The notes beneath the pieces were generated by a model. It ran no database searches and was not told the origin of the DNA. It saw only the letters and a program-made list of their open reading frames with translations. A stretch of DNA of 39,111 bases, from positions 1 through 39,111 of IMG/VR virus record IMGVR_UViG_3300009108_000026, one strand, 5' to 3'. The stretch is from a virus (taxonomy: Duplodnaviria; Caudoviricetes). The translations under genes and the position numbers were made by a program. Shown piece by piece: positions 1,408 through 31,914 of the stretch (positions within the stretch are counted from its first letter, which is position 1; each line of letters starts with the position of its first letter).

Positions 1408-3488
1408 GCCTGATAGAGATTCCTTTGTTTGATGGAGGTTTAGTAACCTTTGCAGATCCAGAGGATATCGATAAAACTGCTGCAGTAGTAAGCACTAATT
1501 TTGATATAGATGAACCTGGTAAGTTAGTTAAAAGGCAGGGTCGTGGATCAGCAGTAACAATAGCTGGGGATCATATAGGTCAAATAGTAAAATGGATCAC
1601 CCAGGATCTAAGTGCATCAGTATGGGTGTATTATGAAACCCAGTCTGATAAATTGAGAACTTGTGCAGCTGCATTTACAGGTGCATCAGATATTAAAGCA
1701 TTGCATGCATCCACAACAAATGTACAGATCCATAATTTTGGCAGGGTGTTAAGATTCTCAAATGACATTTATCAAAAGCCTGGTATATATCATACTATAG
1801 ACAGACAATTCTTTTTTGGTAATTATGATCTGAGTGGTGGAAATAAGATTCTGGATTACGATGATGCACCACCAAGTTTACCAACAACATGGGATGTCCA
1901 AAATATAACAGAAATTGGGACTGGATCTAGACAATCAGGGTTTTATTATTATCAATTTGTACCTGTATTTGATGGAGTACAGGAGCATCCATTAACAGGT
2001 GATAATTTTACTTCTAAAGAAATTACAAATGATAATAAAACATTAAGAGTTGGACTAAAGATAGATAAAGGATCATCTGACTACAATCCCAGGATAACAT
2101 CTGTGAAAGTGTATAGATCTTTTTCAGATACTGTAACTGGTGATATAGATCCAGTTTATTATCATATAACAACTATTCCCCTGAATACTAGATCAACCCA
2201 TGAAGATAATGTTTCATCAGGTATTACTGTTACTCCATTAGATAATCAGGTATGGATATCTGGGGATTTAAGTACAGAACCAACTGATTGGAGTACATCA
2301 GGAAATGATAATACAAGAGGGATTATTCTAGGTTCAAGTCAAACAGGTACGATAAGTCCAGGTTCAATAGAATATAATTGTTCTGACCAAACATGGCCTG
2401 GTACTTCCACTGGAGGGCTGTTTAATCTTACAACCTCAATTGGTACAAATGATAGAATTTTTGATGGTGCTTACACAATAGCTGTTTTAGAACAGGGTGA
2501 AAGTAATTATCTATCAGGTCATAATTCTGATAGTGGTGGTTACGCAGGGAAAAATGTATTATATCAAAGTGCATGGAACTGGTACTCAGGTGAAGCTAAA
2601 GGTATGGTTGTTTATAATACTGGGGGTAACGCTATTGATGATGTTGTATTAGATAGTAAAGAACAGTGGATAAAAATCAGTGTTGATACCACTCACACAT
2701 CAGATTTTGATATCAATTTAACAGATGGTTACAGGTATGATGTAAATGGAGATGATATCACTTTATGGCTGTATGACCAAGAACTAACAGATAAATCATT
2801 ACACCCATTAGGTGAGGCAACGAAGGTTACTGTTAACCATAAATATGCGACCTATTTAGGTGGCAGGCTATTTGCTGGTAATGTAAGGCTGGACCCAGAT
2901 GCAGATGCTGAAGATCATCAGGATTGGATCATATACTCTGAGTTACTGCAGCCAGATGTATTGCCAATTACAAATTATATACAAATAAAGGATACCCAAG
3001 GTGGCCAGATAACTGGGCTTACAACACATCTAGGATCCCTGGTAGTGTTTATGGAAAGGGGTATATATAGATTAGATGTACCATCAGTAGATCCATCCAC
3101 TTTTTCACTTATGGAATCAGAAGAGAATTTTGGATGTATAGCCCCTAATTCTATAGTGACTATTGGAGGTCAAACATTTTTCGCTGGCCAGGATAACGCA
3201 TATGTATTAGACAGTGGATTTAATATATATCCAATCACATTACCAATAAAAGATATCTACCAGGGTAAGTCTAACTTAGAACAATCGAGGTTTATTTATG
3301 ATCCTAAGAAGGGAAGGATGCTTTGTCGTTTTGGATCTGATAAACAGAATATATATGTATATGATACCAATCGTTCAAGAGCTGGCCAAGCTATATGGGG
3401 ACATATGGATCTAGGGGCCACAGATGTGGCAGATCTATTTGCCATAGATGAAGATCTAAAAGTCTTTTCAGTAACAAATGCAGCATAG
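1404..3488 (+). CDS. Tail nozzle / stabilisation protein (tubular protein B-like beta-propeller)
   Basis: 694 aa; N-terminal FDGGL..N..G.LVKRQG, then GRLF, IIYSE..PD, G.ITGL..LVVF.E, GCIAPNSIV motifs. Confidence 0.7.
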   Translation: MSLIEIPLFDGGLVTFADPEDIDKTAAVVSTNFDIDEPGKLVKRQGRGSAVTIAGDHIGQIVKWITQDLSASVWVYYETQSDKLRTCAAAFTGASDIKALHASTTNVQIHNFGRVLRFSNDIYQKPGIYHTIDRQFFFGNYDLSGGNKILDYDDAPPSLPTTWDVQNITEIGTGSRQSGFYYYQFVPVFDGVQEHPLTGDNFTSKEITNDNKTLRVGLKIDKGSSDYNPRITSVKVYRSFSDTVTGDIDPVYYHITTIPLNTRSTHEDNVSSGITVTPLDNQVWISGDLSTEPTDWSTSGNDNTRGIILGSSQTGTISPGSIEYNCSDQTWPGTSTGGLFNLTTSIGTNDRIFDGAYTIAVLEQGESNYLSGHNSDSGGYAGKNVLYQSAWNWYSGEAKGMVVYNTGGNAIDDVVLDSKEQWIKISVDTTHTSDFDINLTDGYRYDVNGDDITLWLYDQELTDKSLHPLGEATKVTVNHKYATYLGGRLFAGNVRLDPDADAEDHQDWIIYSELLQPDVLPITNYIQIKDTQGGQITGLTTHLGSLVVFMERGIYRLDVPSVDPSTFSLMESEENFGCIAPNSIVTIGGQTFFAGQDNAYVLDSGFNIYPITLPIKDIYQGKSNLEQSRFIYDPKKGRMLCRFGSDKQNIYVYDTNRSRAGQAIWGHMDLGATDVADLFAIDEDLKVFSVTNAA

Positions 3489-8581: not shown

Positions 8582-11500
8582 ATGGCAAATACTGCTGTTT
8601 CTGGCCAGGTTCCATTAAAATGGTACCAAATTGCGTTAACTGATCCAAATATTGCAGCCTGGTATGCCCAATTAAGGGCTGATCATCCAGGCGAACCTGA
8701 AAGTGTAATAGATCATATGGTAAGATCCATCCAGGACTATGGTGATGGATCTGGAAGTGGGTATGATTATATAACTGCAATTGAAAAAGGTGACAGGCCA
8801 TCAATGCAGCCAGATGGAAAATATCATTGGGGTGGTGATGTTGGTGGTGTGATCCTAAAAGGTAAGCAGCATCCAACCAGGCACCTGACAGATCAGGGAT
8901 TTACATCCCAGGGAATGGATCCTCAAGAATTACAGCCACCTGAAATGAGGCCACTTAATCAGCAGGGTGTGGATTGGAATAGAATGGTTCCTGGGGTTCA
9001 GCAGATCTTGGATGATCAGGCTGGCAGAGTTGAAAGAATTAGGGAGCAGGCCAGGAATCGTCAAATGGTAATAGACAGTTATCAGGATCTTGTTAAGGCC
9101 TACCCTGAATCATACAAACAAATTAAATCATTAGTTGAAGAAGGTGTCCATGATTTAGATACTGTTATTAAAATAGTTCGTAACCCAATAAAGAAAGATA
9201 TCCCTTCAGAGTTAGGATTCTTTGATAAGGTCGCTGAATTTAAGCATATTAAAAGTTGGGTTAAATTATTACCATTTGTAGGCAGTGCTGCAGAAATTAC
9301 AGAAATGGAAATGTTAGCAATGGCTGTTGAAAGTTTTGAAAATGGTACAGCAACTCCCAGGCAAATAAATATGCTTAAAGAGTTTGTTGAATATTCAGAG
9401 GCTGACAGGGATTGGTTTTATAAAGTTTTTGATCTAGTGACAAATCTACCAGCATTTGCTGGAGAGATATATTTAACTGGTGGAATATATACAGCTGCTA
9501 AAAAAGCAACATTAGAAGTTGCAAAGAGAGGATTAAAAAAGGTACTTACTGATTCAGGTAAAAAGGCTTTATATCAGTATGGTACTAAAAAGGCCACTGG
9601 TAAAATAGCTCAGAAATCATTAGGTGCTATAGGTGGGGCTACAGCACAAGCTATACCAGCAGGAACTACCAGGATCCCTGCAGAAACAATGCAGCGAATG
9701 ATGCCTACACTTGGATTAGATGAAGATGAGAAACTGGTTATCCAGGGAGAAGGTGAGTCAGCTTTGGATGCATTAGTAAATGCGACTAAAGGCCAGTGGA
9801 TCGAGATGGTATCAGAAAGATCTGGTGGTTTGTTTGGGTCCCTTGGAAGACCAGTAAAAGAGGCAATAGCCAGAACCACATTAATGAAACGATGGATGAA
9901 GAGTAATCCTGGTGGTACTGTATCACAATTTAGCGAAATATTAAATCGTTCAGGTTACCATGGTGTGATCAATGAGATCCTTGAAGAGCGAGTTGGAGCA
10001 ATAGCCAGGGCTACACCTGGTATTGGTACTGGTGAAGAGTTTGAGGATTATACAAGTAAAGAATTCTGGGAGCAGCTAAGTGTTGAGGGAGCAGCGTTTG
10101 CTGTTCCAGGTATTGGTCGTGCTACTGCAGATTTTCAAGTTAGAAGAAAAGCAAAGAAGGCAGAGGAGAAAGCAGAATTAGCAAGCCAGCAGATGGAGGC
10201 AGCTGCTAGCCTAAGCCCTACTGGAACCATTGGTGTAGATGATCAAGGCAGAAGAGTTACTTCATTTGAAGAAAGAAGAAGGACTGAGGAAGAGGCATTA
10301 AGTGAGATAGATGCTGCAGTGGAAGCTGGTGATACTACTGAAGGGGTAGGAATGCTGGCCAGACATTTAATATCCCAGGATCCAGACTTTGATGGGAAGA
10401 CGAGTTTAGAGATCAGTAGAGAGGTTTTAAAACTAACTGATGATTATATTAGAAATGTTCTTAAAAAAGAACCAGAGAAGTTTTTTGAAGAGGAGGGAAT
10501 TACCAGGGATGAAGCAGAAGAATACTACGCAACAGGTTCGACACAAGTTGACATTCAAAAGGGATATACCAGGACAGCCATCAAGTTATATAAGGGTCAC
10601 GATGCAGACACCCTCGTTGAAGAATGGTACCATTCATTCTGGGAACATACAACAGACCAGGATAGAGCAGCCTTCCAGAAATATCACGATCAATCAGGGG
10701 ACACCAGATCAGTAGAGGAACATTTTGGCCAGGAAGGTAGGGACTATTTCTTCAGTGAGAAGATGCATGAAGAGGCTGGTGCTATTAGGACCATCTTTGA
10801 GAATGCCAGGAAATCTTTAAGAGAGCTTATTGCCAGGATCAGAACTATCAGGGGAGCCAAGATCCCTAAGAAGATCCAGGACATGTATAGAGCAGCTGGT
10901 AAAAGGGAACTCACTCCACAACAACAGAAGAAGGTTAAAACTGATAAGAAGGATACCCAGTTCCAGGCTAAAAAGTTAGAGCCGATGGAAGCTAATCTAA
11001 GAAAAAAGAGTCGAGGAAAATTAACTGAAAGTAAAAAATTATTTAAGAGATTAGTAAAGGTTGTTCCTGATATGTGGCGTGGTTTAAGTAGTTCAGATGC
11101 TCAGAAATTGACAAAATTAGGGATGAAAGTATATTACCCTGATGCTGTAAAAAATATGCTAATGCAGGCTGGGATGTCCAATAAGGATGCAACTAAATTA
11201 ATTGCACAGGCTAAAGCCATACCAGACTTTAACCCCTCAGAGGTGCTTGATAAAATAGATTGGAGTACAGTAGATTGGTATAATCAAGACAAAGGTCCTA
11301 AGATTATGCATCAGGTTAAGAAGTTAGATAAAGCAGTAAAGCCTAGATCTAAAGAATTCAAGAAGTGGTTTAAAGGTAGTAAGGTTGTTGATGATAAGGG
11401 TGAGCCTATGGTTATGTATCATGGGACAAAAGCATCTAAGGTTATACCTCCTAAGACTGATGATGATATAGTTAAATCAGAACCAGTTGATTTTGATATA

Positions 11501-14500
11501 TTTGAAGAAGGTGATATAGGTTTTCATTTTGGGACTAAAGAACAGGCTAATAGTAGAGTTCGGAGGGGTGGAGGACAGTTTACGAATGCACGAGTTATGC
11601 CAGTGTATCTGAATATCAAAAATCCTTTAAGAATGGAAGAACCTCATATTGGTGGTGATTGGGGGCATGCACAACAAATTATAACTCAGTTGGAAGAATT
11701 AGGGTTTAAGGATATTCCTAAAGAGCCAAAAGTGAGAAGAGGTTATAATTATTATCCCAGCACAAAAGGAACCAGAAAACAACATCTTGAAGACATTAAA
11801 AATTATCTTATTGACAAGGGTTATGATGGTATAGTATATGCAAATAAATTTGAATCTCCCCTAAGAGATAAAGAAGGCAAGATTACAACATCTTACGAGA
11901 AGGGTGAAATAGATGTACAGGATTCATATATTGCCTTCAAACCTAACCAGATCAAAGGCCAGTTCAATGTCAAGCCTACTTCTGGTCCTAAGATCATGCA
12001 TCAGGCTAAGAAGTTCACAGATCGTGAAAATTTTGAAATGCAAGATACAGCAAAGAAGATTTTTGGTGTTACAGAAGACCCAAGGGAAGCAGGATATATA
12101 TTGAATGATGGATCCATGCTTGACTTCTCTGGCAAGAATGAAGGTGGAACTCCAGGAACTAGGGCATATGACCATAGACAAATAAATCAAATTGGTGATG
12201 ATTCAGAAGGTCAGGGTGGAGATTCAAAATGGGATGATGTAGGAATGATGGAATTTATAAAAGCAGGAGCCATCAGATATATGCCTGAATCTATGACATT
12301 TCATCTTGGTCCTCTACATCCAGATCAGGGACAGTTAGCCACGATGCGTAAATTAATTGAAAATCCTCCTGGTATGGAAGTATTACATTTTAAAACACCA
12401 ATTACAATTAGAATATCTGCTGCCAAACCATTTGAAAAAAACTATGATAGGGATACTTCCTGGGAAGAAATTAAAAGGGATATCTTACAATTTATTAGAA
12501 CTGGTAGAAAACCTTCAATAGTACAGCAGTTCCATCAGGCCAGAAAGAAGGAAGACATATTCTTCAGCCCATCTGAAAGAGCAGTAGAAGAGAAGTTCCC
12601 CCCAACGATGAAGTCCATGTCAGTTATTAACTGGATCAAGAAACAAACCAATAATTCAAAAGAGATAGAGTGGCTTGATATCTCATCATTCTTGAAGGGC
12701 AAAAAGAAGATCACCAAGGAAGATTTATTAGAATGGATCAATGCTAATAAGATCATTGTCCAGGATGTGTTCAAGGTAGATGAATGGATGAAAACTCCTG
12801 AGTGGAAAGCATTTGATGCTAAATTAAAAAAGAAGTATGGTGATTCATGGGATCATCCAGATTTTGAATTTGATGGGCCACAAGAGGGTAGTATTGCAAG
12901 GGATCTTGATATAATGAATGAAAAAGAAATGGATGAATATTCAGGCATTAAATTAAAATACCAAGAACCAGAACATTCTGGATACCAACTCCCAGGAGAA
13001 AAGGAAGACTATCGTGAATTGTTGTTGATATACCCACAAAAAGGTTTTAAAGAATATCTTAATTTTGAAGAACTACCTGAAGATGCACAAGCATTAGTAG
13101 GATTTGGTGATCAGGAGTCAATAGAGGGTTTACAGGGATTAGGTTATGAAGTTGAAACTGATATGTCTGGAGAGATCACTAATATATATAAAAAAGATAG
13201 AGAGGAACCATTTACACAAGGCCACTACGAGGAGGCTAATGTCCTGGCCCATGTCAGATTCAACACCAGGACTTCACGCACTGGAGAGAAGATCTTATTT
13301 ATTGAGGAACTACAATCTGATTGGCATACCAAAGGCAGAGAGAGGGGATATAAAAAGGAAATATTAGATAAAGAACTTAAATGGGCTAAGCTGGCAGATA
13401 TAGGAGATGGCACAGAATGGGTTGCAACTATTCCTGGAACCAGATACAATTACACAATTACATATGATAAAGAAAACAATACTTTTCTTACCAGGAGAGT
13501 AGATGAACATGGAAGGTTAAGAGGTGTTATAGATTTTGAATACTTAGAAGAGGCTAAAACATATGTTCAAAATGCAGTAAATAGTGCAGATATTAAAACA
13601 GGTAGTGTACCTGATGCTCCATTTAAGGGTACAGATTGGATTGAGTTAGTGGCCAAAAGGATGCTCAGATATGCAGCAGAAAACAACTTTGACAGGATAG
13701 CCTGGACCACTGGGAAACAGCAAGTAGAAAGATGGAAATCTGCACTCAGGCAAAAGGTGGATGCAATCCAGTGGCAGAAGGTAAAGGATACTCAGCAAAC
13801 ATTTGAAGAAAATAAAGAAGGATACTATCAAGATTTAGTAAAAATCAATGGTATAAAAGGCAATAAGAGTGTATTTGATGAGTCAATCCCCCTCTCAGGT
13901 GCAACTAAGATCCAGGGTCAAGATGTTAACTTGGAAGGGTTAATTGGTAAACAAATTGCTACTCAGATCAGAGAGTCAGATAAAAGATCTGGAACAGTTG
14001 AAGGTGGTGATCTAACCATTGGTGGGCAGGGAATGAAACTGGTGTACGACAGTGCCTTTAAAAAGGCTTTAAATAAGTTAGGTAAAAAGTTTGGTACTAA
14101 GGTGGATAGGGTGGAGATATTTGCAGATCAAAAAATAGATACTGTACTTGATCCAGGAACAGGTGAGAAAAAACAAGATATTAGGGTTTTTAAGCGTTTT
14201 CAACCTTCCTTATATATCCCACCTAAAATGAGTGAGTCTGCACAAAAGGCTGCTCCTCAGTTCCAGGTAAAGAAGAAGAAAGATGTTGACTTCCCAAGGG
14301 TTAAAAAATCAGGAAAGTATATTGCTCTTCCTGATAATATTAACACACCACAAAAATTAGGTGGACTCGTTACACGACTGGCTAATATGGCAAAAGAAGG
14401 TGAAGAGGGGAGATACTGGTATGAAAGGAGTAGTGATGTTATTTTACATGCTGTTAATGGTGATCAAGAAGAAGCCCAGAAAATAGCAGCACTTACTGGT

Positions 14501-17500
14501 CTATTTAGCCAGGGAACAGGCCTTTTGCCAAACTGGAGAGCAGCACTACGATATTATATAAACAGTAAAGCAGGGGAACCAAAAACTGAAGGAAGGTTCC
14601 CTAATACTATGGTGCCAAAAGCAGAAAAGATTATGAATGGTGAGATTCCATTAGGGATCAAAACTAATAACTTTTATACAAACCTAATGAGACATATAGA
14701 TCCTGGTATGGAGCAGGGGGTTACAGTAGATCTATGGATTATGAGAGCATTAGGCTATAAGACAGATGCCCCAGGCCCAGTCCAGTACGATAGAGCATCT
14801 AAACTTATTACAAGAGCAGCTGAGAGATTAGGCTGGGAGCCACACCAGGTTCAGGCTGCTGTATGGACCACAATTAAATCCAAGTGGGAGGCTGTACAGC
14901 AGAAAATAAAAGCTGAAGCAGTTAAAAAGGGACATTTTATTCCTGCTAAAAAGGTGGATGGTAAAAAGGTTCCTGGCCACTGGAAAAGTGAAATAATGAG
15001 AATTCGTTACAGGAATAAGTTTTTAAAGGCAGCATACAAGGTTCCATCCAGTGAAGTAAAAGCATTGGACTTCGCAGATCTAATGGCTAATGAGCTAGCA
15101 ACTATTACAATGGAAACTGTACCTGGTGTAGAAGGATACTTGGATAAAGTAGATCTAGATAAAGATTATGTAGAACTGAACAGAATGCATGTCGCTCTTC
15201 AGAGAGTTATTACTGATGAGGCTGGTAATGATAGACTGGCTCAAGCTGTTGGAATGATGGTAATGGGAGATATGTCTGCTCCTGGGGCCTGGTTAGAAAA
15301 AGTATCACCAGGTAGACAATTAACTGTAGTTGCACCAAAGGGAAAGACTGGAGATATTACAAAACAGTCTGAGGATCAAATAAAAGAGTATGCCTCACTG
15401 TTTGGATTATTGTTTCATCAGTATGGAGTTGGTTATCATAAACCAATGTTCGAGAATACGATGATAAGATCTAATTTAGCAGAGGTAGTGTTTGAAAATG
15501 ATGTGAGACTTACTGCAGAAGAATCAAGAAAATTCACAGCAGCTATGGCTGAAGAAATTGAGAGTAAGTATGGAGTGGAATATATCCATGATGTTTACTT
15601 AGCACCAGCCTCTACAGGATACAGGTGGATAAATTTAACGAAAGAAAAAGCAGAATTTATTAAATCAAAAATGCCTGAAGGAAAGAAATCAAAATACAAA
15701 GAGATTACTAATAAAGATTTTAGAGAATTAGTTGCTAATGTTACTCATAAAACATTCCCAAAAATAAAATATGAAATAGTTGCATTTAAAGCAAATTCAA
15801 ACTTAATTTTAAAAAGCCAGGAGAAAGAAACAGATGAAACCTACAAGAATACGCTTAGCAGATCGAAACGATCCCAGATTTACAGAGGGCTTCTCAGTGA
15901 CCTCCATCCACAGGTTAACCAAGTCTACCAAGACTTCGCAGGAAAAAACGACTGGGGCAAAGCTCCCCAAAAAGACCAAAAAGTAACCTTCCAGGTTCGT
16001 CACAAGCGAACCCTCCCCTCAGAAAATAAACCTAAACCACTCGCCTCTAAAGGCACTGAACTATCTCTAGATCCAGAAAGATTTAGGGATAGGGTTCAAC
16101 GCAAGATCCAGGACAAGATGAATCGTCTTGGTCATGTGATGAAAAAGGTCAGAGAGGTTCGTGATATTTCAGATGAAGAAGATGCATACCTGGCCAGTGA
16201 TAATTATATTGGTAGGACCAGGGAAAGGATGGACAAGTTTGAGCGAGAGGTTTTTGATAAGAAAGGATCTCTTTTAGATCGTATTCTTTCAGCAGGATAT
16301 TCCATTGATGACTTTGGTGAGTACTTACATGCCAGGCATGCCAAGGAGCGTAATGATCATGTAGCCAAGATTAATGAAGATATGCCTGATGGTGGATCTG
16401 GAATGACCAATGAAGAGGCAAGTGAGATCCTGGCAAAACATAAGGGTGATAAACAGATCCAGAAGTTCGCCCAGGAATTCTATAGAAGGGTAACCAAAAG
16501 AGCATTACGAGAGAGATTAAATGCTGGCCTCATAGATCGTGAAACCTACGATAAATTAACCACCTATTATAAAAATTATGTACCACTCTTTGTGGTTAAG
16601 GATATAGAGAATAGGATCAATACATCTGGGAAGGGATTAAGTATTCCCCAGGGAGCAGAACTAAAGAGGGTAAAAGGATCCACAAAGGAAAGGGCTAATC
16701 CAGTATACTCAGCAATATATGAAATGATGGGAGTCATTAAAAGGACTGAGAAAAATAAGGTTGGATTAAAATTTTTAGATCTTGCTGAAGAGTTTGATAG
16801 TGAATCCTGGGAAGTTAATCGTATGAGGTACAAGCCAGTTTATAATAAGAATGGTGAGCTGGAGTTTATGGAGCCACAATTCAAGCTGGATGATAATGTA
16901 TTTGCAGTCAGGAGAGAGGGTAAAATATATTTAATTACTATCCATGATGAAGCATTAGCCAGGGGGTTAAAGAATTTAGGTACAGAAAAAACCTTTAAAT
17001 ACTTAATGACTGCTAATAATTATTTAAGGTCAATTGTTACAACATTTAATCCAGAGTTTATTATAACAAACTTTGAGAGGGATATACAAACAGCATTGGT
17101 ACATGTGGCTGGAGAGTTCAAAGGTTTAGCTGGTACAGTATTAAAGAATACACCAAAGGCTATTCGTGGTGTATGGAGAAATGTGCGTGACAAGGATGCT
17201 GTCTATTGGTCTGAAATGTATGACGAATTAAAAGCAGCTGGTGGTAAAGTTGGTTGGTTTGACATGGATACACTGGAGGATCATCAATCTAAGGTAGAAA
17301 AGAGATTAAAAGAGATCCAGGGTGGTACAGGAAATCTTAAAAAAGCAGCAAGGGCAGTGGGAGATTTTGTAGAGAATGCTAATGAGGCAATAGAATCAGG
17401 AGTAAGGTTAGCCACATATGAGGCCTTGAGAAAGAAGGGTATGTCTAAAGAGAAAGCAGCCCAGGTAGCAAAGGGGATTACAGTAAACTTTAATAAGAAG

Positions 17501-18637
17501 GGTGAGTGGGGAACAACAATGAACACATTCTACTTATTTTTCAACGCAACAATCCAAGGTAATGCCAGAATTGCTGCATCCTTTGCTAAATCTAAAAAGA
17601 CCAGGGCTATAATGGCTGGTATGGTTGGAATGGCTGTAACCCAGGGTTTAGTAAATTATATGATAGCTCCTGATGAGTGGGAGAAAATGAACAAGTGGGA
17701 GAAGGATAATTACATGATATTAATGAGGCCAGATGGAACTCTGTTCAAATTAAAGGTTCCTTATGGTTATAACATTCTACATGTAATGGGTCAAACTGCA
17801 GCAGATCTGATCTACCAGGGATCTATGCAGGGGGCTGGATTTAAAAACCTAGATTATATGGAAGCAGCAGGAAGAGTATTTGGAGCAGCATCAGATGCAT
17901 TTTCTCCTTTTGGTGATGGATCCTTATTCCAGGCCATGTCACCTACTGTATTAGATCCAATAGTACAGATAGCAGAAAATAAGAAATTCCATGGTGGTCC
18001 CATATCACCTAAAAAATGGGGAGATACAGAGAGTGCTGATTTTATGAACTACTGGTCTAAGAATCCACCAAGTTGGGTATCCAGGGCAATTACTTATGGG
18101 TTAGCTATGGCTACTGGTGGGAAGCATTATAAAGGAGTAAGAACAGATTCTAAGGGAAATCTCGTTGATCATTATATACCTGGATGGATTGATATAAATC
18201 CAAATACTTTAGATCATGTGTTTGAATTTATGACTGGAGGTGTTGGTAAGTTTATTTCCAGGAGTGTGGATCTGGGTATCAATGTAGCAGTTGGTGAGAA
18301 AACACCAGCAAAAGAGATCCCATTCATTAGACAATTTTATGGAGAACCTGATAAAAGGGCTATTACTGAAAGGGTACTGATTAAAACCTATTTAAGTAAA
18401 TCTAAAACAAAAATATATAATCATGTAGAGGTTGCTAAGTTCAAGCGTTATGTATATGATGCTATGAAGTTAGGAAAGCTCACAGAGACACAATCAAAAT
18501 TAGTATTGGATGAGAATGGTAACGAGGTGCCAAGGGTGATCAGAGACTTTATGAACAACCAAAGGTTAGCCCAGGGCCTAACACCACATAAGTACAAAAG
18601 ATCTACTAAAAAGAAAAGAAAAAGAAGGATTTATTAA
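8582..18637 (+). CDS. Large polyvalent internal virion protein (degenerate zincin, ART-PolyVal-like, EELQSDW domain, HhH-GPD glycosylase-like, LPD38-like C-terminus)
   Basis: 3351 aa; motifs TLVEEWYH..EE.F; FKKWF..VVD..GEP...YHGT..GFHFG..VYL.IKNP..GYDGI..NQIK; HVRF..LFIEELQSDW..PDAPF; WYE..KT.NF..VTVDLW..R..QVQAAVW; VNFNKKG..LFFNA.IQG..KVPYG..NP..LDH. Confidence 0.85.
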   Translation: MANTAVSGQVPLKWYQIALTDPNIAAWYAQLRADHPGEPESVIDHMVRSIQDYGDGSGSGYDYITAIEKGDRPSMQPDGKYHWGGDVGGVILKGKQHPTRHLTDQGFTSQGMDPQELQPPEMRPLNQQGVDWNRMVPGVQQILDDQAGRVERIREQARNRQMVIDSYQDLVKAYPESYKQIKSLVEEGVHDLDTVIKIVRNPIKKDIPSELGFFDKVAEFKHIKSWVKLLPFVGSAAEITEMEMLAMAVESFENGTATPRQINMLKEFVEYSEADRDWFYKVFDLVTNLPAFAGEIYLTGGIYTAAKKATLEVAKRGLKKVLTDSGKKALYQYGTKKATGKIAQKSLGAIGGATAQAIPAGTTRIPAETMQRMMPTLGLDEDEKLVIQGEGESALDALVNATKGQWIEMVSERSGGLFGSLGRPVKEAIARTTLMKRWMKSNPGGTVSQFSEILNRSGYHGVINEILEERVGAIARATPGIGTGEEFEDYTSKEFWEQLSVEGAAFAVPGIGRATADFQVRRKAKKAEEKAELASQQMEAAASLSPTGTIGVDDQGRRVTSFEERRRTEEEALSEIDAAVEAGDTTEGVGMLARHLISQDPDFDGKTSLEISREVLKLTDDYIRNVLKKEPEKFFEEEGITRDEAEEYYATGSTQVDIQKGYTRTAIKLYKGHDADTLVEEWYHSFWEHTTDQDRAAFQKYHDQSGDTRSVEEHFGQEGRDYFFSEKMHEEAGAIRTIFENARKSLRELIARIRTIRGAKIPKKIQDMYRAAGKRELTPQQQKKVKTDKKDTQFQAKKLEPMEANLRKKSRGKLTESKKLFKRLVKVVPDMWRGLSSSDAQKLTKLGMKVYYPDAVKNMLMQAGMSNKDATKLIAQAKAIPDFNPSEVLDKIDWSTVDWYNQDKGPKIMHQVKKLDKAVKPRSKEFKKWFKGSKVVDDKGEPMVMYHGTKASKVIPPKTDDDIVKSEPVDFDIFEEGDIGFHFGTKEQANSRVRRGGGQFTNARVMPVYLNIKNPLRMEEPHIGGDWGHAQQIITQLEELGFKDIPKEPKVRRGYNYYPSTKGTRKQHLEDIKNYLIDKGYDGIVYANKFESPLRDKEGKITTSYEKGEIDVQDSYIAFKPNQIKGQFNVKPTSGPKIMHQAKKFTDRENFEMQDTAKKIFGVTEDPREAGYILNDGSMLDFSGKNEGGTPGTRAYDHRQINQIGDDSEGQGGDSKWDDVGMMEFIKAGAIRYMPESMTFHLGPLHPDQGQLATMRKLIENPPGMEVLHFKTPITIRISAAKPFEKNYDRDTSWEEIKRDILQFIRTGRKPSIVQQFHQARKKEDIFFSPSERAVEEKFPPTMKSMSVINWIKKQTNNSKEIEWLDISSFLKGKKKITKEDLLEWINANKIIVQDVFKVDEWMKTPEWKAFDAKLKKKYGDSWDHPDFEFDGPQEGSIARDLDIMNEKEMDEYSGIKLKYQEPEHSGYQLPGEKEDYRELLLIYPQKGFKEYLNFEELPEDAQALVGFGDQESIEGLQGLGYEVETDMSGEITNIYKKDREEPFTQGHYEEANVLAHVRFNTRTSRTGEKILFIEELQSDWHTKGRERGYKKEILDKELKWAKLADIGDGTEWVATIPGTRYNYTITYDKENNTFLTRRVDEHGRLRGVIDFEYLEEAKTYVQNAVNSADIKTGSVPDAPFKGTDWIELVAKRMLRYAAENNFDRIAWTTGKQQVERWKSALRQKVDAIQWQKVKDTQQTFEENKEGYYQDLVKINGIKGNKSVFDESIPLSGATKIQGQDVNLEGLIGKQIATQIRESDKRSGTVEGGDLTIGGQGMKLVYDSAFKKALNKLGKKFGTKVDRVEIFADQKIDTVLDPGTGEKKQDIRVFKRFQPSLYIPPKMSESAQKAAPQFQVKKKKDVDFPRVKKSGKYIALPDNINTPQKLGGLVTRLANMAKEGEEGRYWYERSSDVILHAVNGDQEEAQKIAALTGLFSQGTGLLPNWRAALRYYINSKAGEPKTEGRFPNTMVPKAEKIMNGEIPLGIKTNNFYTNLMRHIDPGMEQGVTVDLWIMRALGYKTDAPGPVQYDRASKLITRAAERLGWEPHQVQAAVWTTIKSKWEAVQQKIKAEAVKKGHFIPAKKVDGKKVPGHWKSEIMRIRYRNKFLKAAYKVPSSEVKALDFADLMANELATITMETVPGVEGYLDKVDLDKDYVELNRMHVALQRVITDEAGNDRLAQAVGMMVMGDMSAPGAWLEKVSPGRQLTVVAPKGKTGDITKQSEDQIKEYASLFGLLFHQYGVGYHKPMFENTMIRSNLAEVVFENDVRLTAEESRKFTAAMAEEIESKYGVEYIHDVYLAPASTGYRWINLTKEKAEFIKSKMPEGKKSKYKEITNKDFRELVANVTHKTFPKIKYEIVAFKANSNLILKSQEKETDETYKNTLSRSKRSQIYRGLLSDLHPQVNQVYQDFAGKNDWGKAPQKDQKVTFQVRHKRTLPSENKPKPLASKGTELSLDPERFRDRVQRKIQDKMNRLGHVMKKVREVRDISDEEDAYLASDNYIGRTRERMDKFEREVFDKKGSLLDRILSAGYSIDDFGEYLHARHAKERNDHVAKINEDMPDGGSGMTNEEASEILAKHKGDKQIQKFAQEFYRRVTKRALRERLNAGLIDRETYDKLTTYYKNYVPLFVVKDIENRINTSGKGLSIPQGAELKRVKGSTKERANPVYSAIYEMMGVIKRTEKNKVGLKFLDLAEEFDSESWEVNRMRYKPVYNKNGELEFMEPQFKLDDNVFAVRREGKIYLITIHDEALARGLKNLGTEKTFKYLMTANNYLRSIVTTFNPEFIITNFERDIQTALVHVAGEFKGLAGTVLKNTPKAIRGVWRNVRDKDAVYWSEMYDELKAAGGKVGWFDMDTLEDHQSKVEKRLKEIQGGTGNLKKAARAVGDFVENANEAIESGVRLATYEALRKKGMSKEKAAQVAKGITVNFNKKGEWGTTMNTFYLFFNATIQGNARIAASFAKSKKTRAIMAGMVGMAVTQGLVNYMIAPDEWEKMNKWEKDNYMILMRPDGTLFKLKVPYGYNILHVMGQTAADLIYQGSMQGAGFKNLDYMEAAGRVFGAASDAFSPFGDGSLFQAMSPTVLDPIVQIAENKKFHGGPISPKKWGDTESADFMNYWSKNPPSWVSRAITYGLAMATGGKHYKGVRTDSKGNLVDHYIPGWIDINPNTLDHVFEFMTGGVGKFISRSVDLGINVAVGEKTPAKEIPFIRQFYGEPDKRAITERVLIKTYLSKSKTKIYNHVEVAKFKRYVYDAMKLGKLTETQSKLVLDENGNEVPRVIRDFMNNQRLAQGLTPHKYKRSTKKKRKRRIY
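11294..12015 (+). repeat. 32-bp direct repeat pair (11294-11325, 11984-12015) flanking the ART domain
   Basis: ggtcctaagattatgcatcaggttaagaagtt vs ggtcctaagatcatgcatcaggctaagaagtt; 30/32 identical, 690 bp apart, in frame. Confidence 0.92.
15834..15986 (+). CDS. Candidate nested 50-aa gene in the +1 frame of the giant gene
   Basis: TTGCAT-18nt-TAATTT (15780-15809), AGGAG (15819-15823), ATG 15834; MKPTRIRLADRNDPRFTEGFSVTSIHRLTKSTKTSQEKTTGAKLPKKTKK; local shift to C-ending codons in the host frame. Confidence 0.5.
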   Translation: MKPTRIRLADRNDPRFTEGFSVTSIHRLTKSTKTSQEKTTGAKLPKKTKK

Positions 18638-30768: not shown

Positions 30769-31914
30769 CTATTTCAATTGGTCAATTGCTTTATGTGCTA
30801 ACTCCTGGTCTACCTTCTTCACATAAGTTTTAGTGAGTAACTTAGTGGTTGTGTGACCAGTGATCAGCTTGATCTCATCCAGGCTGTAACCTGTATTGAA
30901 AAGATTCGTTGCAAATGTATGTCTCAATGATCCCAGGCTCGTTTTAACCTTACCACCTGAAACCTTTAACACTGCCTCTTTGAATCTCTTACTGGATAGA
31001 TCTCTTTCCTTCTTAGTCTGGTAGACACCAAAAAAACCATTACTGTTATCCAGGATCTGTTGGATCTTTGGATGAACTGGGATCCTTACATTTACCTTCG
31101 ACTTGGTTCTGCTGCCATCAATGTATCTTCCACCATTGTCACCACGAATACTGCCTCTGGTCAATGAAGAAACATCAATTGGATTCAAACCAGTGTATCG
31201 TAAGAATGTCCAGAAGATCTTATCAGTCTCCCTGGCATCAACAATAACAGCATCTAAAATAGCATCACTAATGTGGATGTATTCCTTTTGTGCCTTCGTT
31301 CCAGGCTTATAGGCAGACTTAACAGGGTTGCTGTCAATGTAATCATTATCATTAGCATACTGTAATGCCTGGTTGATTGGTTTAAGATAGTTAGTGATCG
31401 TGTTAGGTGCCTTGCCTTCATCCTTTTTAGTCTTGATGAAATCATTGATAGTTCCAACCTTGATCTCAGATATTAAAGAGATATTGACAGAGTCAAGATA
31501 TTTCTGGAAGATCCCTGAATTCTGTCTCTCTTTATCAATCCAGTTTTGTGATTTATCATCTGATACCAGGCCCAACCATTCAACTCTAAGGTCACTGAAT
31601 GTGTAATCAGTATGGTTAATAACCTTATTAACTGCTGATCCAGGTAAGTGATCTGATAGTAGGATTGCTAACTTAACTTTATCTGAATCCTCTAATGTAT
31701 CAATCATCTTAATGATTGTGCTAAGATCAGCTGAGTTAACCTTTTTTGTTATCTCATTCAATTCAGTATCTGCTGCTATTTGCATTGCTAGTCGTTCAGC
31801 CTTACGCTTACCATACTGGCTAACCCTTATCTTTGTTGAAGCTCTATGATATCTGCCTAGAGCATCTTGATATTTCATGTGAAAAATGTCTCCACGAAGT
31901 GTTATGCTGGCCAT
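30769..31914 (-). CDS. int: Tyrosine integrase with non-canonical active site
   Basis: 381 aa; RBS GAGGAGG; N-terminal arm-binding-like domain, SAM-like core (TITNYL..NPV), YTGLNPID, RTKS, SLRHTFAT, GH, Y. Confidence 0.92.
   Translation of the reverse strand: MASITLRGDIFHMKYQDALGRYHRASTKIRVSQYGKRKAERLAMQIAADTELNEITKKVNSADLSTIIKMIDTLEDSDKVKLAILLSDHLPGSAVNKVINHTDYTFSDLRVEWLGLVSDDKSQNWIDKERQNSGIFQKYLDSVNISLISEIKVGTINDFIKTKKDEGKAPNTITNYLKPINQALQYANDNDYIDSNPVKSAYKPGTKAQKEYIHISDAILDAVIVDARETDKIFWTFLRYTGLNPIDVSSLTRGSIRGDNGGRYIDGSRTKSKVNVRIPVHPKIQQILDNSNGFFGVYQTKKERDLSSKRFKEAVLKVSGGKVKTSLGSLRHTFATNLFNTGYSLDEIKLITGHTTTKLLTKTYVKKVDQELAHKAIDQLK

What the first reader, a model, noticed from the sequence alone, without database searches (positions are those of the whole stretch)
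15780..15986. Hidden gene with its own promoter and RBS nested at the end of the glycosylase-like cassette
Seen: inside the giant ORF, TTGCAT-18nt-TAATTT, AGGAG and ATG 15834 open a 50-aa +1-frame ORF (MKPTRIRLADRNDPRFTEGFSV...). It stops 2 nt before the FQV linker codons. The host frame switches abruptly to C-ending, CpG-containing codons over this stretch, as dual coding would require. Inference: a cognate inhibitor or antitoxin that travels with its effector cassette and is expressed independently, protecting the producer or lysogen from the injected DNA-modifying domain.
Basis: partly seen in the sequence, partly recalled or inferred. Interest (0 to 1): 0.8.

Follow-up and report, generated by a model that had tools for sequence, protein, structure and literature searches.

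The report
Hidden partner gene inside phage mega-protein
A small second gene, conserved across distant phages, hides in a shifted reading frame at the tail of one module of a giant phage protein, and it likely makes a peptide that binds and restrains that module.

Summary
The 50-codon +1 ORF (15834-15986) is a real, conserved nested gene. The claimed promoter is not supported (6 of 12 consensus matches, not conserved).

In this window alone the ORF could be chance (P about 0.28). But all 84 homologous cassettes with DNA keep the frame open (80 ATG, 2 GTG, 2 ACG). Among 31 clusters, the frame is open in 31 (4.9 expected), has ATG/GTG in 29 (14.5 expected) and an SD-like site in 30 (13.2 expected). 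The peptides share a motif, M[AGV]K..[DE][DH]P[IM][FY]..G...S.

The host is a phage polyvalent protein. Its cassette is an HhH-GPD glycosylase fold followed by a tandem ferredoxin-like module. The peptide follows the ferredoxin-like module and is kept where the glycosylase is missing. It also occurs as free-standing genes and in decayed cassettes in bacterial genomes. Two other nested +1 families occur in related giant genes.

Best reading (about 0.5): a cognate inhibitor, like MuF toxin-immunity pairs but hidden out of frame. The co-fold gives only weak support. Translation, binding and toxicity are untested.

The parts
8582..18637 (+). Host gene: 3351-aa phage polyvalent protein (ART-PolyVal aa 937-1126, DUF7178 aa 1938-2100, LPD38 aa 3031-3249)
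14351..15073 (+). HhH-GPD glycosylase-like domain (DUF7178); K2027 (nt 14660) and D2050 (nt 14729) kept in 31 of 31 clusters
   Evidence: model pLDDT 93; T. maritima 8-oxoG glycosylase Z 10.6, rmsd 3.8, 173 aligned
15056..15970 (+). Unnamed C-half: two ferredoxin-like units plus two closing helices; near-invariant E2178, G2235, aromatic 2237, Q2280; its last helices are the dual-coded stretch
   Evidence: model pLDDT 92
15819..15823 (+). Shine-Dalgarno-like AGGAG, 10 nt before the ATG
   Evidence: SD-like site in 30 of 31 clusters, 13.2 expected
15834..15986 (+). Nested +1-frame gene, 50 aa
   Evidence: open for 50 codons or more in 84 of 84 cassettes; free-standing homologues
15834..15908 (+). 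Conserved core of the peptide (first 25 codons); the rest is a variable S/T/K-rich tail
15989..15997 (+). F-Q-V inter-module linker of the host protein; similar [FH]Q[AV] motifs recur between modules
15780..15809 (+).

Best explanation
A conserved small gene lies in the +1 frame over the last helices of a two-domain cassette in a phage polyvalent protein, and its peptide likely binds and inhibits the ferredoxin-like half of that cassette. SHOWN: the reading frame, start codon, ribosome-binding site and peptide motif are under selection; the gene stays with the ferredoxin-like half with or without the glycosylase; it survives alone after the host frame decays. INFERRED: it is translated from an internal start on the same late mRNA as the giant protein (no conserved promoter). 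INFERRED: the giant protein is packaged and injected (role of polyvalent proteins, PMC5512222), so the peptide would keep the module quiet in the producing cell while the injected copy arrives without it. INFERRED: it began as the small gene behind an effector, as in MuF toxin-immunity pairs, and was swallowed when the host frame read through into the next module; bacteria that keep orphan copies would gain protection. SPECULATIVE (about 0.3): the ferredoxin-like half is a SAM-lyase/PII-like module that binds or cleaves a nucleotide cofactor.
For: Gene reality: 31 of 31 clusters (<70% host identity) open for 50 codons, 4.9 expected; ATG/GTG 29 of 31, 14.5 expected; SD-like 30 of 31, 13.2 expected; 0 +1 stops in 834 codons of the core block against 3-8% in blocks upstream. 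142 of 147 distant proteins have [NDHY]G at the ATG place. Reverse test: 60 of 61 IMG/VR matches to the peptide's DNA pattern lie at the same place in this cassette. Linkage: L137 and L123 carry the C-half and peptide with no HhH match; L103/L120/L136 lack the usual HhH; L156 and L160 are stand-alone 264-272-aa C-half genes with the nested peptide. Orphans: of 53 genome matches scoring 22 bits or more, 30 are free-standing (28 with SD), 15 sit in broken host frames, 8 in intact or edge-cut ones; two tandem copies in L196, three in G004, and peptide without any C-half match in G001 and G002. Co-fold of cassette and peptide: score 0.60 (0.60, 0.49, 0.70), best of 3 controls 0.00; the mark was reached by 116 of 157 solved complexes and 2 of 215 mismatched pairs, but at 0.60 or under by only 18 of the 157 and by both mismatches, so this is weak; runs agree in at least 28% of contacts, partner pLDDT at least 45; counts hold only roughly with my alignments. 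Other nested +1 genes: 24 of 24 loci with one metallopeptidase tail carry a second family.
Against: No translation, binding or toxicity data. The co-fold gives no interface, so the bound half is not known. The conserved core is only about 25 residues with a low-complexity tail, unlike most folded immunity proteins (recalled) and unlike an acidic DNA mimic. The defence-island link of orphans is not significant per locus: PADLOC hits (E<=1e-10) in 10 of 22 free-standing loci against 6 of 23 control loci, p=0.22; per protein 14 of 86 against 6 of 108, p=0.018, but several loci are close kin. L007 has ACG and no SD while its conserved residues are intact, and L066 has ACG. Most cassettes hold both halves (147 of 159 proteins), so the glycosylase is not excluded as target. 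Window against L001 alone shows no excess synonymous identity (11 of 22, 9.6 expected). Clusters share ancestry, so the tallies are not independent trials.
Confidence: 0.5

Rival explanations
1. The gene is real but its peptide acts on a host or phage target of its own (a small counter-defence or regulatory protein), and its place in the cassette is an accident of descent.
For: 30 free-standing copies, two of them in genomes with no C-half match; the motif heads unrelated ORFs and takes varied C-terminal extensions.
Against: 60 of 61 viral matches are tied to this one module; it stays with the C-half through domain shuffling; weak co-fold pass, 0.60 against best control 0.00.
Confidence: 0.2
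2. The peptide binds the cassette as a positive partner (folding aid, activating subunit, or localisation or packaging adaptor), not as an inhibitor.
For: Linkage and co-fold do not tell the sign of the effect. E. coli GndA, an out-of-frame microprotein, recruits its host-ORF product (10.64898/2026.10.22.760973, title and start of abstract only). The C-half lacks the glutamate at the SAM-lyase position.
Against: A helper has no use without its client, yet orphan and duplicated copies persist after the host frame is broken.
Confidence: 0.18
3. Translation of the nested ORF matters in cis (leader-peptide or translational-coupling control of downstream expression), and the peptide has no role in trans.
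For: Short core and disposable tail; in L100 the motif begins a 224-aa ORF.
Against: Free-standing copies have no constant co-oriented downstream gene; in phages the ORF ends inside a continuing host frame.
Confidence: 0.09
4. The ORF is a chance shadow of the host frame.
For: P(open)=0.28 in this window and 4 alternative-frame ATG ORFs of 50 aa or more in this gene; no pairwise synonymous excess against L001.
Against: Family tallies; third codon positions of the host frame conserved inside the ORF; the same motif in genes whose -1 frame is closed.
Confidence: 0.03

Closest known systems
MuF polymorphic toxin-immunity pairs of temperate phages (PMC5576092, passages read)
   Same: Virion-associated effector in a probably temperate phage with a small unannotated ORF at its 3' end; 89.4% of 191 muf toxin genes are followed by such an ORF.
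   Different: Here the small gene lies inside the effector's frame (+1) and the effector is an internal module of a 3351-aa polyprotein; no MuF domain was found in this protein; toxicity is unshown.
Rpn gene-within-gene toxin-antitoxin systems (PMC10400984, passages; 10.1101/2023.05.02.539157, listing and start of abstract)
   Same: Small protein started from an internal initiation site near the 3' end of the larger gene; second decoupled copies exist.
   Different: RpnS is the C-terminal portion of the toxin itself; here the peptide is out of frame and unrelated in sequence; Rpn is bacterial defence, this is a phage late gene.
Phage polyvalent proteins (PMC5512222, passages)
   Same: ART-PolyVal and LPD38 domains, among virion genes.
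   Different: 'glycosylase', 'ferredoxin' and 'overlap' do not occur in that paper's main text; I did not see its supplements.
Lambda Rz/Rz1 nested spanin genes (PMC5295617 listing only; nesting recalled)
   Same: Out-of-frame nested gene whose product works with the host gene's product.
   Different: Rz1 is a lipoprotein subunit for lysis; nothing here resembles it.
Phage SAM lyases and SAM-AMP lyases (PMC7877911, PMC12255297, passages)
   Same: Ferredoxin-like fold; G-x-aromatic and Q-[DE] motifs in like order; 6zm9 Z 7.9, rmsd 4.0, 122 aligned.
   Different: No glutamate at the expected catalytic place by eye; tandem units in a polyprotein; no sequence-profile match to T3 SAM lyase.
HhH-GPD glycosylases, Ogg2/AGOG/EndoIII type
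   Same: Fold and invariant Lys/Asp pair.
   Different: 12% identity or less to the top four matches; substrate unknown.

Membership tests
Protein-coding nested (overlapping) gene | Open frame, start and RBS kept beyond what host codons explain | tested here: met
   31/31, 29/31, 30/31 against 4.9, 14.5, 13.2
Protein-coding nested (overlapping) gene | Peptide sequence selected independently of the host frame | tested here: met
   same motif in 30 free-standing genes
Protein-coding nested (overlapping) gene | Translation shown | not testable with these tools
   needs ribosome profiling or proteomics
Independently transcribed gene | Conserved promoter upstream | tested here: not met
Toxin-immunity pair (MuF/polymorphic type) | Small gene at the effector's 3' end that moves with it | tested here: met
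Toxin-immunity pair (MuF/polymorphic type) | Direct binding | tested here: inconclusive
   0.60 against best control 0.00, weak
Toxin-immunity pair (MuF/polymorphic type) | Toxicity and rescue | not testable with these tools
   bench test
Toxin-immunity pair (MuF/polymorphic type) | MuF domain in the carrier | tested here: not met
   no MuF match in the window's protein; one relative has a sub-threshold MuF_C match
Rpn-type intragenic antitoxin | Antitoxin is the toxin's own C-terminal portion | tested here: not met
   +1 frame, unrelated sequence
Phage polyvalent protein | Several conflict domains in one large protein among virion genes | tested here: met
HhH-GPD glycosylase/AP lyase | Fold | tested here: met
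   Z 10.6, rmsd 3.8, 173 aligned; 8 of the top 10 rows are glycosylases or glycosylase-fold queuine salvage enzymes; Foldseek E 0.016 at best; a helical domain, so the Z is moderate
HhH-GPD glycosylase/AP lyase | Catalytic Lys and Asp | tested here: met
   K2027, D2050 in 31/31 clusters, 137 and 139 of 150 proteins, the rest nearly all gaps; equivalence judged from the motif (recalled), not by superposition
SAM lyase / PII-like lyase | Fold | tested here: inconclusive
   Z 7.9, tied with unrelated ferredoxin-like folds
SAM lyase / PII-like lyase | Catalytic Glu (E69/E71) and Gln (Q104/Q108) | tested here: inconclusive
   Gln 149/150 and Gly 139/150 kept; S/N/A/G where the Glu is expected by eye; another Glu (E2178) kept in 147/150; no residue-level superposition available

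The most novel reading that the evidence does not exclude
Phage polyvalent proteins are strings of swallowed effector-immunity cassettes: effector modules carry their cognate inhibitor as a hidden +1 gene over the module's tail, which annotation misses, and bacteria harvest these inhibitor genes as orphans to disarm injected phage effectors; here the effector may be a cofactor-destroying, SAM-lyase-like counter-defence module.
Probability: 0.3. Interest if true: 0.9.

Novelty: new variant of a known kind. Interest (0 to 1): 0.78.

Why it matters
It uncovers an unannotated small-protein family hidden in giant phage genes from marine, freshwater and other metagenomes, and gives a rule for finding more: look in the +1 frame at module tails. 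If the peptides are inhibitors, they explain how a phage can build a multi-effector protein inside a cell it still needs. They would mark which unknown modules are toxic, and they point to a bacterial counter-counter-defence by captured inhibitors. A cultured lysogen candidate exists (G005, Halomonas sp. NO4, L215/L270), so this is directly testable.

Tried and rejected
Antisense ORF 15809-16003: rejected, since L001 has TCA host codons that stop that frame (read by eye). Pairwise synonymous test against L001: no excess. Single-protein locus scans with the window's sequence found nothing. The peptide alignment was too variable for the search for related loci. Peptide: no family in Pfam or PHROGs shared by more than 1 of 39 members, none for the window's peptide in NCBIfam or PADLOC, no usable Atlas hit; the exact peptide is not in the protein collection. 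Cassette: no PDB sequence match, no match in 50,697 GenBank phage records, no shared Pfam family for the C-half, Atlas hits only 0.85. T3 SAM lyase and RSB1 ORF6 do not align to the C-half profile; the P-HM2 record was fetched but not followed up. No RNA holder listed. Defence-island enrichment not significant per locus; L149 was left out of that count because it holds N, though it has an SspE-type neighbour; only the first 23 usable of 44 control loci were used. Earlier scan notes: none found. Literature: DUF7178/PF23802 gave 0 papers; searches listed nothing that, by title or start of abstract, describes nested genes in polyvalent proteins; subscription journals and supplements were not searched or read. 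Not tested: whether DUF7178-only loci lack the peptide; the metagenome collection was not scanned.

Full report
SETTING. The window is a whole phage genome with direct terminal repeats, 100% complete by the record. It has terminase, SU10-type portal, capsid and adaptor matches and an integrase, so it is probably temperate (inference). ORF 8582-18637 encodes a 3351-aa polyvalent protein with ART-PolyVal, DUF7178 and LPD38 domains. Such proteins lie among virion genes and are thought to be delivered at infection (PMC5512222, passages).

THE OBSERVATION. All coordinates are correct. C-ending codons are 18 of 50 against 347 of 3301, but 8 of the next 21 codons are also C-ending. The promoter matches 6 of 12 consensus positions and is not found by the scan. 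On the window alone the ORF is unremarkable: P(open)=0.28, and P(some SD-ATG ORF of 50 aa or more in the gene)=0.16.

HOMOLOGUES DECIDE IT. P0002 (43% identical over this region) has DNA in L001, L004 and L005. It has a 51-aa +1 ORF at the same place, 38-40% identical to the window's peptide. This pair alone shows no synonymous excess (11 of 22, 9.6 expected). A scan with a host-frame motif far from the ORF gave 151 relatives, of which the tool kept 80. Of 84 sequences covering the cassette (window, 3 of L001-L006, the 80 loci), all have the frame open for 50-109 codons: 80 ATG, 2 GTG, 2 ACG (three were anchored by alignment). In 31 clusters below 70% identity, against each gene's own codon use with the host protein fixed, the frame is open in 31 (4.9 expected), starts with ATG/GTG in 29 (14.5) and has an SD-like site in 30 (13.2). 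The core block has 0 +1 stops in 834 codons. Clusters share ancestry, so these are tallies, not independent trials. Among 150 distant proteins without DNA, 142 of the 147 that align there have [NDHY]G, which can spell ATG in +1. A short contig of a close relative has its own AAGGAG and ATG at the same place. Of its 20 differences the tool listed 6, and none falls on host position 3, against 12 of 20 listed differences downstream (small numbers).

THE PEPTIDE IS A GENE IN ITS OWN RIGHT. The core is M[AGV]K..[DE][DH]P[IM][FY]..G...S, followed by a variable S/T/K-rich tail. A DNA pattern for it hits 61 IMG/VR stretches (47 distinct peptides; 21 hits repeat peptides already held). 60 lie at this place in the cassette and 1 (L100) is free. 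In cellular genomes the scan stopped at 120 loci. 53 matches score 22 bits or more against the peptide profile; the rest are response regulators and other chance matches. Of the 53, 30 are free-standing, 15 lie in broken host frames and 8 in intact or edge-cut frames. G001 and G002 hold the peptide and no C-half match; G004 holds three copies in remnants; G005 holds an intact 3606-codon host frame with the nested gene. Gene callers have picked up some members as hypothetical proteins.

PROMOTER. Upstream conservation sits on host codon positions 1-2, apart from the SD region. Sigma-70-like sites of 9/12 or more occur in 14 of 31 clusters against 8.2-8.7 expected, at scattered places, with one cluster at -87/-81 in a subgroup.

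THE HOST CASSETTE. The model (pLDDT 93) has two halves. The N-half is an HhH-GPD fold (Z 10.6, rmsd 3.8, 173 aligned) with invariant K2027 and D2050, so it is likely an active glycosylase/AP lyase of unknown substrate. The C-half (pLDDT 92) has two ferredoxin-like units. Its best matches are Z 8.0 (SAMHD1, 83 aligned) and Z 7.9 (phage SAM lyase, rmsd 4.0, 122 aligned), tied with efflux-pump domains; its viral matches are mostly large uncharacterised phage proteins, some named as polyvalent proteins. It keeps G-x-[WFY] and Q-[DE] motifs like those of SAM lyases (PMC7877911 and PMC12255297, passages). It has no glutamate at the expected place by eye and no profile match to T3 SAM lyase, and the window's own copy has Q-Y. 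This link is a lead only.

WHICH HALF? Both halves occur together in 147 of 159 proteins. But L137 and L123 have the C-half and peptide without an HhH match, L103/L120/L136 lack the usual HhH, and L156 and L160 are stand-alone C-half genes with the nested peptide. I did not test HhH-only loci. Co-folding the whole cassette with the peptide scored 0.60 (0.60, 0.49, 0.70), best control 0.00. The mark was reached by 116 of 157 solved and 2 of 215 mismatched pairs, but at 0.60 or under by only 18 of the 157 and by both mismatches. Runs share at least 28% of contacts, partner pLDDT is at least 45, and no interface is given. This is weak support.

ORPHANS. Many free-standing copies lie by McrB, SspE/GmrSD, MvaI/BcnI and methylase, Fic, ADP-ribosylglycohydrolase or Nmad3 genes. 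Against control loci the excess is 10 of 22 to 6 of 23 (p=0.22), or 14 of 86 to 6 of 108 proteins (p=0.018, with kin among the loci): a trend, not a result.

NOT A ONE-OFF. A screen of long ORFs in the window and L001-L147 found two more conserved +1 families. One of 71-79 aa lies at the tail of an HExxH metallopeptidase domain; 24 of 24 loci with that tail carry it, and 10 distinct sequences are all open with ATG against 0.55 and 5.9 expected. These loci are mostly one related group. A third family has only 3 members (1.1 expected open).

VERDICT. The nested gene is real (about 0.97). A cognate inhibitor of the ferredoxin-like half is the best reading (0.5), ahead of an independent small effector (0.2), a positive partner (0.18), cis control (0.09) and chance (0.03). 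It would work like MuF toxin-immunity pairs (PMC5576092, passages) and like the Rpn gene-within-gene antitoxins (PMC10400984, passages), but it belongs to neither family. My searches found no description of it; unread supplements of PMC5512222 could hold the domain under another name.

Noticed in passing
window 10440-10715 (+1 frame; AGGAGG, ATG 10509); L001 12558-12758: A second +1 frame over a metallopeptidase-like segment is open in both lineages with the same stop place; P(open)=0.10 from 10509 and 0.02 in L001; start not conserved; only two lineages seen.
   Followed up: partly
L007-L034 group near 2783-3004; L132: Second nested +1 family (71-79 aa) at the tail of an HExxH metallopeptidase domain, in 24 of 24 loci with that tail.
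   Followed up: partly
L064 1463-1666, L072 1238-1438, L077 497-700: Third nested +1 family (67-68 aa) with GGAG and ATG in three related giant genes.
   Followed up: partly
L156 2414-3205, L160 1843-2658: Stand-alone C-half genes with the nested peptide in Phycisphaerales genomes; in L160 directly behind the RNase Y gene.
   Followed up: partly
L196 1635 and 2094; G004 (L157, L272, L274): Tandem or repeated peptide copies in decayed cassette remnants; some carry a short helical C-terminal extension.
   Followed up: partly
L007 4307; L066 4526: ACG in place of ATG; L007 also lacks an SD-like site although the frame stays open and the cassette's conserved residues are intact.
   Followed up: partly
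L100 2382-3056: The peptide motif begins a 224-aa ORF in a cluster of oxygenase-like genes (judged by eye).
   Followed up: no
window 15970-15952, minus strand: Terminator-like hairpin inside the nested ORF; 9 such sites found against 9.1 expected in the region.
   Followed up: no
window 30769-31914, minus strand: Phage integrase, the only long gene on the minus strand.
   Followed up: no
L180, L208, L224 near 2168-2996: The free-standing peptide gene sits in a row of three small co-oriented genes between Nmad3 and ADP-ribosylglycohydrolase genes in L208, with like rows in L180 and L224.
   Followed up: no
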